Source of the DNA: a virus | Virus genome (UHGV): UHGV-0237462 | Length of the DNA stretch: 30,991 nucleotides | Direction: 5' to 3' (one strand) | Shown here: in pieces, positions 1 through 24,424 of the stretch | Layout of the letters: each line of letters begins with the position of its first letter | Numbering within the stretch: the first letter of the stretch is position 1 | Made by a program: the position numbers and the translations under genes | The notes under the pieces: model-generated | Told to the model about the DNA's origin: nothing | Database searches by the model: none | Seen by the model: the letters and a program-made list of their open reading frames with translations, nothing else

Positions 1-40
1 GGAATTTCGGACGCGGGTTCAACTCCCGCCAGCTCCACCA
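1..40 (+). ncRNA. ssrA: 3' end of ssrA (tmRNA), partial; ends in CCA. Likely the phage attachment site region
   Basis: Sequence ggaatttcggacgcgggttcaactcccgccagctccacca matches my memory of the T-arm/acceptor 3' end of enterobacterial tmRNA; only the terminal 40 nt are in the window. Confidence 0.75.
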
Positions 41-50
41 AATAAATCAA

Positions 51-83
51 GGGGTTACGTGAAAGCGTAGCCCCTTTTTCTTT
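51..83 (+). terminator. Rho-independent terminator hairpin after the ssrA 3' end
   Basis: 9-bp stem GGGGTTACG (51-59) / CGTAGCCCC (66-74) with one G-U pair, 6-nt loop, followed by TTTTTCTTT. Confidence 0.6.
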
Positions 84-213
84 GGTAGTGGCGGCAAAAT
101 GGCGATAGCCATGGACTAGGGTTGGGTACACGCACATTGCCCTCTATCCTTATGAGTGATCGCACACACGCCTCTACTTTCAAGCTATATTCTAATCTCA
201 ATATGAGGCTACT

Positions 214-927
214 ATGGACTTCAACCTGAACAAAAAAATGCCAGTTAATAGATATCTTGTGATAATAGTTTTTGTCCTTTTCATCTTAGCCTGTATGCAG
301 TTTATTTATCTTTGCCTTCGTTCATTAAGCATTGCCCCAAACTATACGGGGACTGTAAGTGACATTATAATAGCTACAACAAATATTATTTTAGCTACCT
401 ACGCCGTTCGTGCATTCAAAAACTTATTTAAAGATAAACTATCCGATAATGCCATTAGTAAAATAGATACAGCATTGATGTCTCTCGATGATTGCATAGA
501 TAGTTTTTCAAGCTTATTTTTAAATATGACACTTATTAAGATTTATAAAAACACTAATAACCCCAAGGACCCTCAGTTAGTTAAACAGCTCGATGAAGCA
601 GCAAAAAACATTGAAAAAGCAACAAGTTCAGCCTACAAGGCAAGATCTATAATTGGCTCATTAACTCGTTGGAATATAAGCTTAAACACAGAAAAAGGAA
701 TAAGACTAAACCAACTTACCACTGATGTTTTTGAGTTAGGCATGCAGGCAACAAATATGTATATCGCACTAATAAATGAAATAAACCCTAACTCCCCATA
801 CAACTCTTTAACTCATAGACCATTTGATGAGTTATTTAACGAATTTAATGAAGAAAGGACCAGAGTTGAAGACGAAAGCAATGAATTAAAAGAGTTCTCT
901 ATTCATGAAATATTTAAAATCAAATAA
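214..927 (+). CDS. AT-rich hypothetical membrane-anchored protein (237 aa); cargo gene between att and ogr
   Basis: ATG at 214 with GAGG 5 nt upstream; strongly hydrophobic segment near N-terminus (YLVIIVFVLFILACMQFIYLCL); no recognisable catalytic motif; composition visibly far more AT-rich than the phage backbone. Confidence 0.6.
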   Translation: MDFNLNKKMPVNRYLVIIVFVLFILACMQFIYLCLRSLSIAPNYTGTVSDIIIATTNIILATYAVRAFKNLFKDKLSDNAISKIDTALMSLDDCIDSFSSLFLNMTLIKIYKNTNNPKDPQLVKQLDEAAKNIEKATSSAYKARSIIGSLTRWNISLNTEKGIRLNQLTTDVFELGMQATNMYIALINEINPNSPYNSLTHRPFDELFNEFNEERTRVEDESNELKEFSIHEIFKIK

Positions 928-1000
928 GTTATTATAGAATAATTTTAAAAAATCATTTGCATTCTTCTTGTGTCAAAAATCAAATAACTGTCTCGATATT

Positions 1001-1025
1001 ATTCAAAACCCGCCAGCGGCGGGTT
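1001..1025 (-). terminator. Probable terminator of ogr (minus strand), possibly bidirectional
   Basis: Stem AACCCGCC (1007-1014) / GGCGGGTT (1018-1025), 3-nt loop; on the minus strand the hairpin is followed by TTTTGAAT. Confidence 0.5.
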
Positions 1026-1029
1026 AGTA

Positions 1030-1245
1030 TCAGTAAACTAATTGCTCCTGCATCCCTTTGGGATGCGGTGGGGCGGCACTGATTTTCTCGGGGCGACAAA
1101 CAGAACGAACAAAGGTTTCATGCGTTACAAACGTATGCCCACACTCAATATTAGTGCACTGATTGTAACGCTCTTTGGTTTGAGAGGAGACTTGAAAACT
1201 ACTGCGAGTATGTGCGGCCTGACCACACAACGGACAATTCATCAT
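1030..1245 (-). CDS. ogr: Ogr/Delta-family zinc-finger late-gene transcription activator
   Basis: 71 aa; CPLCG...C..C.H four-Cys pattern and overall resemblance to P2 Ogr as I recall it. Confidence 0.9.
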   Translation of the reverse strand: MMNCPLCGQAAHTRSSFQVSSQTKERYNQCTNIECGHTFVTHETFVRSVCRPEKISAAPPHPKGMQEQLVY

Positions 1246-1313
1246 TTATCAACTCTCCTCATCTTTGCTATATTTACAATAATGATACACCATTATTCAA
1301 TATTGAGAACCAT

Positions 1314-8293: not shown

Positions 8294-8860
8294 TCAGGGG
8301 GATTCATTACTCTTATTTGCCGGAAATTTTCTATAAATGGTAGAAACGCCTACATCAAAAATCAGTGCAATACGCTGTCTTGATTCTCCGGCCTCGAGTA
8401 AACGCCCAATCTGTGCCCACTGTTTGGTGGTCAACTTAGGACGGCGTCCACCTACTCTGCCTTTGGCACGAGCTGCAGCCAGCCCTGCCCTAGTACGTTC
8501 AACTATCAGTTCGCGTTCCATTTCAGCCAGGGCCCCCATGACATGAAAAAAGAAACGGCCCATTGGGGTGCTGGTATCAATACTGTCAGTCAGGCTTCGG
8601 AAATTCACGCCACGCTGACGCAACTCTTCTATCAGCGTAACAAGATGCCGCATACTGCGCCCCAACCTGTCTAGCTTCCAGACAACCAGCGTGTCTCCTG
8701 CCGATAGTGTCCTGAGCAGTTTTTTCAGCCCCGGTCTGTCGGACTTAGTGCCACTGATTTTATCCTCAAAAATCCGCTCACATCCCGCGCAGTTCAGTGC
8801 ATTACGTTGCAAATCGGTGTTCTGGTCATTTGTTGACACGCGTACATAGCCAATAAGCAT
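8294..8860 (-). CDS. Serine-recombinase DNA invertase (Gin/Pin/Hin/Cin family)
   Basis: 188 aa; N-terminus MLIGYVRVSTNDQNTDLQRNAL and GRFFFHVMGALAEMERELI are near-identical to Gin/Hin invertases as I recall them; C-terminal HTH. Confidence 0.9.
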   Translation of the reverse strand: MLIGYVRVSTNDQNTDLQRNALNCAGCERIFEDKISGTKSDRPGLKKLLRTLSAGDTLVVWKLDRLGRSMRHLVTLIEELRQRGVNFRSLTDSIDTSTPMGRFFFHVMGALAEMERELIVERTRAGLAAARAKGRVGGRRPKLTTKQWAQIGRLLEAGESRQRIALIFDVGVSTIYRKFPANKSNESP

Positions 8861-8915
8861 GATTATCCCCCTGAATAAAAACCGGGGATGATGCCAGTTA
8901 GCTGTTACCTCTGCA

Positions 8916-8941
8916 TTTTCTTAAACGTTGGTTTGGGAGAA
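8916..8941. repeat. Left (invertase-proximal) 26-bp inversion crossover site
   Basis: TTTTCTTAAACG TT GGTTTGGGAGAA: 12-bp half-sites around a 2-bp core, gix/hix/cix-like; the inner half-site is the exact reverse complement of the inner half-site of the partner at 10512..10537. Confidence 0.7.
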
Positions 8942-9271
8942 GCCAGATATATCATTCAGCGAGGAGCTAATGCCAATGGTGCATGGATTCGCTGGTCAGA
9001 TGGTGCAATAGAAGTCTTTGGAACGGGTGGGTCTAATGATAATGGACTGGCTAAAGTCGTTTACCCAATTGCACTGCCTAAACTTTCACGTTTTATCAGT
9101 ATCGCGGAAAGAATAAGAACAGATTACGAGAGCACACCTAATAATGTTCACGTTTCAATGATCGTGGATGATCAGGTAACAAATACCGGTTTTTATGCCC
9201 GCTGCCAGATGTACGACGGCAGACCATCATCAAATGCTTTTTCCTGGAGGGTTTATTGTGCGCCTGTTTAA
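8930..9271 (+). CDS. Silent alternative tail-fibre C-terminal cassette (no own start; would fuse to the H constant region after inversion)
   Basis: Open frame from the crossover core to TAA at 9269-9271; the codon phase at the core (G TT) matches the phase of H at the partner core (C TT), so inversion would give an in-frame H constant part plus 113 new C-terminal residues beginning GLGEARY. Confidence 0.6.
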   Translation, partial: GLGEARYIIQRGANANGAWIRWSDGAIEVFGTGGSNDNGLAKVVYPIALPKLSRFISIAERIRTDYESTPNNVHVSMIVDDQVTNTGFYARCQMYDGRPSSNAFSWRVYCAPV

Positions 9272-22824: not shown

Positions 22825-23523
22825 TTATTTGTTTCTTCTTTGTTCACGCCTTGTCTTGGCTTCGATAAGGCGTTGAGGTTCAGTGTAAAGCCGTTCTAAA
22901 AAAAGATAGGTAAAATCTTCAAGATCCTCAGCAGCAGCTTTATCCAAAATACCTTCATGCGCTCCATCATTTCCGTCATCTTTAACGCATTCAGCTAGTT
23001 CCCTTAAAGCTTCAGGCAGTAGATGATTATCAAATAACCACTCCATTCTTAACCCTAGGCTTCTCCTTATTTTTTGCGCAGGCCCTTGCTCCCCATCAGG
23101 AAGAAGTCCTTTTGTGGCATAATCAAGGCAAAGCCTAAACATGGTTGCTGCTGCATTATAACAACCTATAGCCAAACATTTCGCCCCTTCCTCATATGCA
23201 CTATTGATATGCTCAGGTAAGAACTCTGGTGGCTCCTCTACTGCTAAGTCTGCCGGTGATATAGGTCTAACAACCTCTGCAACTTCCTTTAAGCCGAATA
23301 TTCCACTTTCCCAATTATAGCCATCTAAAGTTTTATTTTTCGTTAAAGGTCTGCAAAGAAAAATTGTCGTTTTATGACACTCTCGGCAAACACAATAGAC
23401 CTCGTACTCGTATGTTTTACCCCCGCCCAATGCATTGTAAACCCTAGTGCAATTCAGCCCATTAACATCAAACGCTATTTTTTGTGATCCACATCGTGGA
23501 CAGTCATCCACTAACATAACCAT
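22825..23523 (-). CDS. Cargo protein: N-terminal zinc ribbon plus C-terminal helical domain resembling DUF4145 (possible HEPN-like effector), 232 aa
   Basis: ATG at 23523 with GGGAGGAG 8 nt upstream; CPRC ... CVCREC four-Cys ribbon; C-terminal half shows the pattern I associate with DUF4145 (..GNDGAHEG.. flanked by amphipathic helices); sits between cos and the 3' end of Q, converging on Q with an 8-bp gap. Confidence 0.65.
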   Translation of the reverse strand: MVMLVDDCPRCGSQKIAFDVNGLNCTRVYNALGGGKTYEYEVYCVCRECHKTTIFLCRPLTKNKTLDGYNWESGIFGLKEVAEVVRPISPADLAVEEPPEFLPEHINSAYEEGAKCLAIGCYNAAATMFRLCLDYATKGLLPDGEQGPAQKIRRSLGLRMEWLFDNHLLPEALRELAECVKDDGNDGAHEGILDKAAAEDLEDFTYLFLERLYTEPQRLIEAKTRREQRRNK

Positions 23524-23812: not shown

Positions 23813-24424
23813 CTACGTAACCACAGTTAATGTGTGCATCCTGTCTCGAATTGCATCACACGTCTCATCAAAAAGCTTGGTGATGGTTGTACGGTTCAAC
23901 TCCGCCTCTTTCCAATAATTTTGCCCGTCAAATTCTGGATCGCTATGCTTAAACGATATTGACTCTGAAAGGCATTCCTTCCGGAAACGGTCCAAGATTA
24001 TATAAACCTCTGGTGAGATGAACGGTTTGTTAGATTCAACACTTGTAACAAAAGTATTAAATGCATCAAAAAAAACTTTCAACCTTCTAAATTTTCTCTC
24101 TTCAAATGGTTCGTTGGGGTCAACATGATCCAGCGCAGGCCTCAGCTTAAGCACGCTTTCTCTGGTTTCAAACATCGAATTCCAAATGAGACTATATGCT
24201 GATAACTCCTTATCAAAATACGCTTTCGTTACATAAACAGAATTGTCTAACTTAGCCTTTATTCTTTCATTAGTTGCACTCAGTTGTGATTGAAATTCAG
24301 CAATATCTTTGTTTAGCCGCGACTTATATCTTTCTAAATAAACTTTCCCGATCCAAACAAATATGCTAGATGCAACAAAAGACACCCCACCCAACGAAGC
24401 CAGAACTTTAAAGACTAAATCCAT
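23813..24424 (-). CDS. AT-rich cargo protein, N-terminal TM anchor plus soluble helical domain, 203 aa
   Basis: ATG at 24424 with GGTGGGGG upstream; hydrophobic N-terminus (VLASLGGVSFVASSIFVWIG); own consensus -10 upstream and terminator downstream; visibly AT-rich. Confidence 0.65.
   Translation of the reverse strand: MDLVFKVLASLGGVSFVASSIFVWIGKVYLERYKSRLNKDIAEFQSQLSATNERIKAKLDNSVYVTKAYFDKELSAYSLIWNSMFETRESVLKLRPALDHVDPNEPFEERKFRRLKVFFDAFNTFVTSVESNKPFISPEVYIILDRFRKECLSESISFKHSDPEFDGQNYWKEAELNRTTITKLFDETCDAIRDRMHTLTVVT

What the first reader, a model, noticed from the sequence alone, without database searches (positions are those of the whole stretch)
41..1004. AT-rich membrane-protein gene inserted between the ssrA attachment site and ogr
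In P2, attP lies directly after ogr. Here about 1 kb separates the ssrA 3' end from the ogr terminator. It holds the ssrA-type terminator hairpin and a 237-aa ORF of strikingly low G+C with a hydrophobic N-terminal segment and a long helical, Lys/Glu/Asn-rich remainder. It is either a phage moron at the att-proximal end or the remnant of a second small element integrated in tandem at ssrA.
Basis: partly seen in the sequence, partly recalled or inferred. Interest (0 to 1): 0.55.

Follow-up and report, generated by a model that had tools for sequence, protein, structure and literature searches.

The report
Orphan membrane-protein moron beside prophage attP
A rare, AT-rich gene for a small inner-membrane protein sits as swappable cargo between the attachment site and ogr of a P2-like prophage integrated in the tmRNA gene; it is probably a phage-exclusion gene, and the type of location is already known.

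Summary
Window 1-41 is the ssrA 3' end, 49-76 a terminator hairpin, 214-927 (+) a 237-aa ORF at 32% G+C (window 52%), and 1030-1245 (-) is ogr.

The ORF lies inside the prophage. In a 99.8%-identical E. coli lysogen the second ssrA copy follows int, 33.8 kb away. Isolated phages Cartapus and MLG42 carry window 1-113 (core, hairpin, arm site) as their own attP. Related prophages have an empty bay or a different gene there. So it is a moron in an ogr-attP cargo bay, not a tandem element and not a host gene (13 of 5426 E. coli genomes, always beside ogr).

The protein is a real orphan:
- dN/dS is 0.07-0.25.
- Only four 50%-identity clusters turned up in 1.84 billion proteins.
- It has no Pfam, PADLOC, PHROG or NCBIfam match.
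- The model shows two N-terminal membrane helices joined by an almost invariant loop (APNYTGT), then a generic four-helix bundle predicted to be cytoplasmic.

Relatives occupy three other phage cargo sites and stay intact in three decayed prophages. The cassette is swapped independently of its flanks.

Function is inferred, not shown. Most likely it is a lysogen-protecting phage-exclusion protein. It is an ordinary kind of feature with an uncharacterised cargo.

The parts
1..41 (+). 3' end of ssrA (tmRNA), which is the att core at the attL junction
   Evidence: RefSeq tmRNA annotation on the 99.8%-identical CEA212U locus. The identical 41 nt is repeated after int at L002:13051-13092. The same core is inside phage genomes Cartapus and MLG42.
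42..116 (+). Phage-borne P' arm of attP. It supplies the ssrA terminator hairpin (49-76) and a putative integrase arm-type site GTGGCGGCAAAATGGCG (87-103).
   Evidence: Terminator scan. The arm is conserved in prophages with ORF237, with another ORF, or with none. It is present in isolated phages. The same arm motif lies on the int side in L020. That it is an Int-binding site is inference.
117..213 (+). Cassette leader: allele-specific upstream region with the Shine-Dalgarno GAGG at 205-208. No consensus sigma-70 promoter was detected.
   Evidence: Identity to the L003 allele drops from at least 96% to 38-62% starting near position 100. The promoter scan found nothing on the + strand between 80 and 213.
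214..927 (+). ORF237: orphan inner-membrane protein. Two membrane helices (13-37, 48-72) are joined by the near-invariant loop APNYTGT, followed by a four-helix bundle (78-225) predicted to be cytoplasmic.
   Evidence: ORF listing. AF2 model with mean pLDDT 78.5, about 90 in the bundle. Hydropathy and charge distribution. Family alignments. dN/dS 0.07-0.25.
928..1002 (+). AT-rich 3' spacer of the cassette. It contains a second copy (976-987) of the ORF's last 12 nt, AAAATCAAATAA.
   Evidence: Repeat D8. The spacer is conserved only with the closest allele, L016.
1003..1025 (.). Hairpin AAAACCCGCCAGCGGCGGGTT shared by the convergent ORF237 and ogr. It is the ogr terminator.
   Evidence: Sequence. 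The same hairpin directly follows the attP arm in the ORF-less prophages S1 and EC96.
1030..1245 (-). ogr (late-gene activator): right-hand anchor of the cargo bay. Its 3' end (about 1030-1075) is part of the exchanged block.
   Evidence: ORF listing and RefSeq annotation. Identity profile.

Best explanation
Shown: window 117-1002 is a single-gene accessory cassette (moron). It occupies a cargo bay between the P' arm of attP and the ogr terminator of an Elveevirus/Fels-2-like, ssrA-integrating P2-type prophage. The cassette is exchanged by recombination in its conserved flanks. It belongs to a very small, AT-rich, enterobacterial phage-borne family that also occupies other phage cargo sites. 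It survives intact when the rest of the prophage decays.

Inferred: the product is inserted in the inner membrane as an N-in/C-in helical hairpin. The polar-faced second helix (S49, D50, N57 invariant; T55, T56 nearly so) and the short periplasmic loop APNYTGT are the most conserved parts. A roughly 160-residue four-helix bundle sits in the cytoplasm. It is made in the lysogen and protects it against other phages. My preferred mechanism is a one-protein abortive-infection or exclusion device. The cytoplasmic bundle would sense or bind an incoming phage component, and the hairpin would oligomerise to perturb the membrane or block genome entry from the inner face. A classical injection block is the less likely variant, because almost nothing is exposed to the periplasm.

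Confidence is about 0.9 for the cargo and moron part and about 0.4 for the anti-phage function. The figure given is for the whole statement.
For: Location inside the prophage:
- The two att copies are 33.8 kb apart, with int at the far end.
- The attP core plus arm is carried by isolated phages.

Variable occupancy of the bay in 5426 E. coli genomes:
- ORF237 family: 13 genomes.
- BRCT-like 160-aa gene, which matches PADLOC candidate PDC-S48: 171-176 genomes.
- Empty bay (S1-type junction): at least 14 genomes.

Modular exchange:
- Against L003, the ORF is 61% identical in protein (dS 1.23) while ogr is 96% and gpD 97.5% (gpD dS 0.17).
- Against L016 the pattern reverses: ORF dS 0.22, gpD dS 1.5.
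- The divergent block spans about positions 100-1075.

Real, constrained gene: dN/dS 0.07-0.25.

Retained intact in three independently decayed prophages: L006-L009, L010-L012 and L018.

Relatives sit in other phage cargo sites:
- The int-attP bay, after a RES-like protein.
- The gpV-gpS gap in three P2-like lineages.
- The tail-fibre-to-ssrA end of a lambdoid-type prophage, near an EcoRII restriction-modification system.

Neighbouring bays hold known defence genes:
- An anti-phage dCTP deaminase (PADLOC E 1.9e-146) sits in the int-attP bay of ORF237 prophage N96. A gene of the same size and Pfam family follows int in L010 and L011 and ends the remnant in L018.
- A PD-T7-4-like DUF4145 protein lies in this window.

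Literature: P2 hotspots are rich in defence systems, including int-att (PMC13586616), and a third hotspot lies between a tail protein and CI (bioRxiv 10.1101/2024.10.15.618418).

Architecture: AF2 model and hydropathy. Basic residues flank the cytoplasmic ends of both helices, and the loop carries no charge.
Against: - No experiment bears on function.
- There is no match to any PADLOC, PHROG, Pfam or NCBIfam model.
- Fold searches give only generic four-helix bundles and two uncharacterised phage proteins.
- No consensus promoter lies upstream, so expression in the lysogen is assumed.
- Known defence genes make up only about 17% of the P2 pangenome (PMC13586616), so guilt by association is weak.
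- The topology is predicted, not measured. In this allele the second membrane helix is only marginally hydrophobic (Kyte-Doolittle 1.2-1.5).
- The family is absent from all 50,697 deposited phage records, so packaging of this particular cassette in virions has not been observed directly.
Confidence: 0.45

Rival explanations
1. Lysogenic-conversion gene unrelated to phage defence. The membrane-anchored protein would alter host envelope physiology, stress tolerance, colonisation or signalling to the benefit of the lysogen.
For: The same evidence that marks it as a host-beneficial moron applies: separate orientation, low G+C, and retention in decayed prophages. Most P2 accessory genes are not known defence genes. 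ssrA-integrating P2-like phages are known carriers of non-defence morons such as sopE in SopEPhi (my knowledge; the SopEPhi att-ogr region is empty in the record seen).
Against: There is no virulence-type domain or secretion signal. The family is tied to phage genomes in four different cargo sites rather than to a host niche. Strains carrying it come from human, cattle, dog, pig, bird and frog sources, with no niche signal.
Confidence: 0.25
2. A function in the phage's own cycle, such as a membrane-anchored modulator of lysis timing, of DNA entry or exit, or of the lysis-lysogeny decision.
For: The gene lies in phage genomes only. Relatives sit between the tail genes gpV and gpS, close to the lysis cassette. 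The protein is a small membrane protein.
Against: It is dispensable. Most related prophages lack it or carry something else in the bay. It is transcribed opposite to the late operon in every P2 context. It is kept intact when all structural and lysis genes have been deleted.
Confidence: 0.1
3. Remnant of a second small integrative element sitting in tandem at ssrA.
For: ssrA is a shared integration site, and tandem arrays do occur. In L010-L012 a CbtA/CbeA island lies between ssrA and a degenerate att copy that precedes the ORF. A 16-nt stretch at 1002-1017 matches the att core at 14 of 16 positions.
Against: The 14/16 match is the ogr terminator hairpin itself, which is present in ORF-less prophages, and such a match is unremarkable among all pairs in 1.4 kb. 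The window holds no other att copy at up to 3 mismatches. The cassette has no integrase or mobility gene. Window 42-113 is phage attP in isolated phages. In L010-L012 the tandem element lies upstream of the arm, and the ORF stays with the arm and ogr.
Confidence: 0.03
4. Flanking host chromosome: a conserved host gene downstream of ssrA.
For: In L006-L009 the homologue follows ssrA and no intact prophage follows it.
Against: Only 13 of 5426 E. coli genomes carry it and 1 of 185,579 species representatives. L006 keeps the phage arm, an ogr-terminator stub and a 75%-identical copy of another cargo gene of this window.
Confidence: 0.01

Closest known systems
Accessory-gene (defence) hotspots of P2-like phages: gpA-gpQ (old/tin), Z/fun in the tail region, int-att, and the 'third hotspot between a tail protein and CI' (Rousset 2022, PMC9122126; PMC13586616; bioRxiv 10.1101/2024.10.15.618418)
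   Same: A variable-content bay between conserved core genes. Cargo is AT-rich, swapped by recombination in conserved flanks, and often defensive. In this lineage the neighbouring int-attP bay holds a dCTP deaminase and RES-like proteins.
   Different: The papers read here name int-att and tail-protein-to-CI. They do not single out the sub-bay between the P' arm and ogr. The cargo found here matches none of their catalogued systems.
Classical P2 morons old, tin and fun(Z), which exclude lambda, T-even phages and T5
   Same: Single genes of a P2-type prophage that are dispensable for the phage, have atypical base composition, and are expressed for the benefit of the lysogen (established knowledge).
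   Different: They lie at different loci. There is no sequence similarity (PHROG and PADLOC scans negative). Old and Tin are not known as membrane proteins (my knowledge), whereas ORF237 is membrane-anchored.
Membrane superinfection-exclusion proteins (T4 Imm, P22 SieA, HK97 gp15, lactococcal Sie2009)
   Same: Small prophage- or phage-encoded inner-membrane proteins, often encoded next to int or att.
   Different: There is no homology. In those proteins the working part faces the envelope (my knowledge). Here only an 11-residue loop is predicted to be periplasmic, and about 70% of the protein is a cytoplasmic bundle.
Membrane effectors of abortive-infection systems (RexB, and the transmembrane effectors of CBASS, Pycsar, retron and Rst systems)
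   Same: A short membrane module that could depolarise the cell, with a conserved polar face on one helix.
   Different: Those effectors depend on a separate sensor or signal-generating partner. ORF237 has no constant partner. The int-side neighbour varies among orf222, RES-like protein and dCTP deaminase. There is no sequence match.
Four-helix-bundle sensor domains (4HB_MCP of Tar, Tsr and PcaY; TorS and NarX-type)
   Different: De novo designed bundles score equally well, so the match is generic. Sequence identity is 5-16% and there is no Pfam hit. Chemoreceptor bundles lie in the periplasm between two membrane helices, whereas this one follows both helices.

Membership tests
Phage moron / cargo of a P2-type hotspot | Lies within the prophage boundaries (between attL and attR) | tested here: met
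   The att core is at window 1-41 and repeated after int at L002:13051-13092. The arm at 42-113 is phage attP.
Phage moron / cargo of a P2-type hotspot | Present or absent, or replaced, among otherwise syntenic relatives | tested here: met
   The bay is empty in S1 and EC96, holds a BRCT-like gene in about 171 genomes, and holds ORF237 in 13.
Phage moron / cargo of a P2-type hotspot | Atypical base composition and a history independent of the flanks | tested here: met
   G+C is 0.31-0.32 in all alleles against 0.54-0.59 for gpD. dS is discordant between the cassette and its flanks.
Phage moron / cargo of a P2-type hotspot | Autonomous transcription unit (own promoter and terminator) expressed in the lysogen | tested here: inconclusive
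   The gene is opposite to ogr and ends at a shared hairpin. No consensus sigma-70 promoter lies at 80-213. Expression cannot be tested with these tools.
Catalogued anti-phage defence systems (PADLOC-DB 2.0) | Significant match to a system's protein model | tested here: not met
   Zero hits for ORF237, P0013 and P0014. P0015 gave only E 0.68.
Superinfection-exclusion proteins (Imm, SieA, gp15, Sie2009) | Homology to a known family | tested here: not met
   The PHROG scan gave only phrog_4068 (unknown function) at E 0.027 with no passing domain. No hit in 50,697 phage records by tblastn.
Superinfection-exclusion proteins (Imm, SieA, gp15, Sie2009) | Blocks DNA entry of superinfecting phage without killing the cell | not testable with these tools
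   Needs adsorption, injection and survival assays.
Abortive-infection membrane effector | Membrane-inserted module | tested here: met
   Two predicted membrane helices. Kyte-Doolittle hydropathy reaches 2.9 for TM1 and 1.2-1.5 for TM2 in this allele. By my own Kyte-Doolittle estimate TM2 scores about 2.5 in P0015 (sequence). Prediction only.
Abortive-infection membrane effector | Infection-triggered growth arrest or membrane depolarisation | not testable with these tools
   Needs infection at high and low multiplicity and membrane-potential dyes.
Independent integrative element at ssrA | Own integrase and own pair of att repeats | tested here: not met
   The cassette holds a single ORF. The window has no second att copy.
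Core host gene downstream of ssrA | Present in most strains, irrespective of prophage | tested here: not met
   13 of 5426 E. coli genomes, all with ogr adjacent. 1 of 185,579 species representatives.
4HB_MCP-type sensor domain | Pfam/HMM match and a periplasmic position between two membrane helices | tested here: not met
   No Pfam match. The bundle follows both helices. The fold similarity is generic.

The most novel reading that the evidence does not exclude
ORF237 founds a new single-gene, membrane-anchored anti-phage family (hairpin plus cytoplasmic four-helix bundle). The family shuttles between at least four cargo sites of temperate phages, including between P2-type and lambdoid-type prophages that share the ssrA site, and it is domesticated by the host when the prophage decays.
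Probability: 0.35. Interest if true: 0.55.

Novelty: new member of a known kind. Interest (0 to 1): 0.3.

Why it matters
If the gene is a defence determinant, it adds a compact one-protein membrane system with no relatives among catalogued defences. It would also point to the ogr-attP sub-bay, and the matching int-attP bay, of ssrA-integrating P2-like phages as a place to look for more. That bay already holds a frequent BRCT-like candidate, and the bay on the other side of attP holds RES-like proteins and a dCTP deaminase. The locus is also a clean example of cassette exchange in conserved flanks, and of cargo outliving its prophage. If the gene has no phage phenotype, it is one more orphan moron.

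Tried and rejected
- **Family scans.** Pfam, PADLOC, PHROGs and NCBIfam scans of ORF237 and its distant relatives gave nothing usable. A PDB sequence-profile search gave only syntaxin-like coiled-coil noise.
- **Obligate partner hypothesis.** I considered that ORF237 pairs across attP with the int-side membrane protein orf222, or with the 203-aa membrane protein at window 23813-24424 whose homologue sits beside ORF238 in remnant L006. Both were rejected. Each co-occurs with ORF237 in only 2 of the 13 E. coli genomes, and profile comparisons show no relationship.
- **RES-like link.** Association with the RES-like int-side protein is seen in 3 lineages but is not constant. I left it as a note.
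- **Native-flank hypothesis.** I considered that window 42-116 might be native chromosome, because a copy lies next to ypjC in K-12-like strains. This was rejected, because isolated phages carry it and several lysogens have only one copy.
- **Literature.** Searching by protein accession found nothing. The lysogeny-transcriptomics paper had no data on this locus.

Full report
**Observation**

The window opens with the last 40-41 nt of ssrA. This is identical to the annotated tmRNA end in E. coli CEA212U, which matches window 1-1300 at 99.8%. A strong hairpin plus T-run lies at 49-76. A 237-aa ORF runs from 214 to 927 on the + strand, with GAGG five bases before its ATG. ogr (1030-1245) and gpD (1314-2414) converge on it from the - strand. 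The ORF has 32% G+C, against 47% for ogr, 54% for gpD and 52% for the window.

**Where the prophage ends**

- In CEA212U the same 41-nt ssrA end recurs 33.8 kb away, after CI, int and a 222-aa ORF. The sequences to the right of the two copies are unrelated. The ORF is therefore inside the prophage, at the ogr end.
- The stretch between ssrA and the ORF (42-116) is not host DNA. It is conserved in prophages that carry ORF237, another ORF or nothing.
- The whole of window 1-113 occurs inside the genomes of phages Cartapus and vB_YpM_MLG42 (Peduoviridae, Elveevirus), between int-side cargo and ogr-side cargo. MLG42 was isolated on Yersinia pestis. This stretch includes the core, the hairpin and a GTGGCGGCAAAATGGCG motif.
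- So the phage supplies the 3' end and terminator of ssrA. The cargo starts immediately after the P' arm.
- A copy of the arm next to ypjC in K-12-like strains follows a degenerate att copy. It looks like a vestige of an old array.

**A cargo bay, not a tandem element**

The bay between the arm and the ogr terminator varies among E. coli genomes:

| Bay content | Genomes (of 5426) |
|---|---|
| 160-aa BRCT-like gene (matches PADLOC candidate PDC-S48, E 1.7e-7) | 171-176 |
| ORF237 family | 13 |
| Empty, S1-type junction (EC96 is also empty) | at least 14 |

- For scale, the phage arm is present in 991 genomes.
- There is no second att copy and no mobility gene in the cassette. The 14/16 resemblance of 1002-1017 to the core is simply the ogr terminator, which ORF-less prophages also have.
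- Where a true tandem array exists (L010-L012), the extra island lies upstream of a degenerate att copy, and the ORF stays with the arm and ogr.

**The cassette moves as a unit**

- Against TUM12355, nucleotide identity is at least 96% over 1-100, 38-78% over about 100-1075, and 92-100% beyond.
- In that pair the protein is 61% identical, while Ogr is 96% and gpD 97.5%. ORF dS is 1.23 against gpD dS 0.17.
- Against L016 the pattern reverses: ORF dS 0.22 against gpD dS 1.5.
- This is allele shuffling by recombination in the flanks, not fast evolution. dN/dS is 0.07-0.25 throughout.

**How rare the family is**

| Search | Result |
|---|---|
| Word-indexed search of 5.8 billion proteins | 12 clusters |
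| Exhaustive profile search of 1.84 billion representatives | 4 clusters at 50% identity |
| Second profile search | 2 more members |
| 185,579 species-representative genomes | 1 hit (Enterobacteriaceae bacterium G50, with ogr, D and U adjacent) |
| IMG/VR viral contigs | 5 loci |
| 50,697 deposited phage records | none |
| Pfam, PADLOC, PHROG, NCBIfam models | no match |

**Contexts of relatives**

- The main clade (52-98% identity) is always beside ogr.
- Three decayed prophages keep the gene intact:
  - L006-L009, in another enterobacterial genus: ssrA, arm, ORF, an ogr-terminator stub, then a homologue of this window's 203-aa cargo gene.
  - L010-L012.
  - L018, in which a gene of the same size and Pfam family as the dCTP deaminase of N96 also survives.
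- P0013 (40% identity) lies in the int-attP bay after a RES-like 397-aa protein, followed by the arm motif and the core.
- P0014, P0015 and P0016 lie between gpV and gpS of other P2-like phages, opposite to the late genes.
- P0017 lies after the tail-fibre genes of a lambdoid-type prophage, 5 kb from ssrA and near an EcoRII restriction-modification system.
- The int-attP bay of ORF237-bearing prophages varies: orf222, RES-like proteins, or an anti-phage dCTP deaminase with PADLOC E 1.9e-146. ORF237 therefore has no fixed partner.

**The protein**

- The AlphaFold2 model has mean pLDDT 78.5, about 90 in the C-terminal domain. It gives helices 13-37 and 48-72, then a four-helix bundle at 78-112, 120-148, 160-190 and 204-225.
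- Basic residues lie before helix 1 (K7, K8, R13) and after helix 2 (K69, K73, K75, nearly invariant). The connecting loop is uncharged. This predicts an N-in/C-in hairpin with the bundle in the cytoplasm.
- The most conserved parts are the loop and helix 2, AP-x-[YF]-TGT-[VA]-SDI-[IL]-IA-xx-N, and the first bundle helix (A-x-x-KID-xx-L).

**Interpretation**

What is shown is a dispensable, mobile, purifying-selected, phage-borne membrane-protein gene. It sits in a cargo bay flanking attP and is kept by hosts after the phage dies. The type of location is already described:
- P2 hotspots, including int-att (PMC13586616).
- A third hotspot between a tail protein and CI (bioRxiv 10.1101/2024.10.15.618418).
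- Rousset 2022 (PMC9122126), whose survey of E. coli P2-like phages covered one hotspot; the other papers place the previously described hotspot between gpA and gpQ.

From context I infer a lysogen-protecting, phage-exclusion role. Because the bulk of the protein is predicted to be cytoplasmic, I favour a sensor-plus-membrane-hairpin abortive or inner-face mechanism over a classical periplasmic injection block. This is an inference with roughly 0.4 probability. A non-defence conversion function is the main rival. Nothing here would surprise a specialist. The value lies in a clean candidate and a defined bay to mine.

Noticed in passing
L002:12292-12960 (CEA212U); L039:2648-3904; L040:1318-2577; L041:3056-4813; L030:1171-2376: The mirror-image bay between int and attP is also variable in this phage lineage. 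It holds an AT-rich 222-aa membrane protein (weak PADLOC '1TM-TIR' hit, E 0.007), a 400-420-aa RES-like family (38-62% identical to one another; Pfam RES only E 0.05), or a bona fide anti-phage dCTP deaminase.
   Followed up: partly
L005:4164-4646; also L024, L025 and Cartapus L030:2664-3146: The commonest cargo of the ogr-attP bay in E. coli (171-176 genomes, including LF82) is a 160-aa protein with a weak BRCT domain. It matches the C-terminus of PADLOC candidate PDC-S48 (E 1.7e-7). It is annotated 'exonuclease' or 'DNA ligase' in phage records.
   Followed up: partly
window 23813-24424 (-) and L006:7018-7629: A 203-aa protein with an N-terminal membrane helix lies in the gpQ-gpA hotspot of this window. 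A 75%-identical homologue sits directly beside the ORF237 homologue in the prophage remnant L006, with everything between them deleted. In E. coli the two genes co-occur in only 2 of 13 ORF237 genomes.
   Followed up: partly
window 22825-23523 (-): A DUF4145 protein matches PADLOC PD-T7-4 (E 9e-7) in the classical old/tin-type hotspot between the portal and replication genes. It is a likely defence gene of this prophage.
   Followed up: no
window 8294-8860 (-) and 8888-9271 (+): A serine invertase (Resolvase plus HTH_7, E 2e-53) lies next to a short ORF with weak similarity to a tail-fibre C-terminus, downstream of the tail-fibre and assembly genes. This suggests an invertible host-range segment.
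   Followed up: no
L026:1750-1905, L027, L028 (K-12-like strains): A degenerate ssrA 3' copy followed by a 94-96%-identical copy of the phage P' arm lies between the pinH fragment and ypjC/ypjB, at the far end of the CP4-57 region. It may be the footprint of an ancient P2-like prophage under the island array.
   Followed up: partly
window 916-927 and 976-987: There is a perfect 12-nt direct repeat, AAAATCAAATAA: the ORF's last three codons plus stop, and again 60 nt downstream. The downstream copy is also present in the closest allele, L016. It may be a ghost of an earlier allele's 3' end left by cassette replacement.
   Followed up: no
L042-L045 (P0017): A 29%-identical family member lies after the side-tail-fibre genes of a lambdoid-type prophage, about 5 kb from ssrA and near an EcoRII/Dcm restriction-modification pair. 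The family therefore crosses phage types that share the ssrA site.
   Followed up: partly
L021:1247-1987 (partner of P0015): A 246-aa protein encoded 34 nt upstream of the family member P0015 contains an R-x4-H motif (RDLGVH) reminiscent of HEPN nucleases. It has no Pfam or PADLOC hit. The HEPN reading is mine and untested.
   Followed up: no
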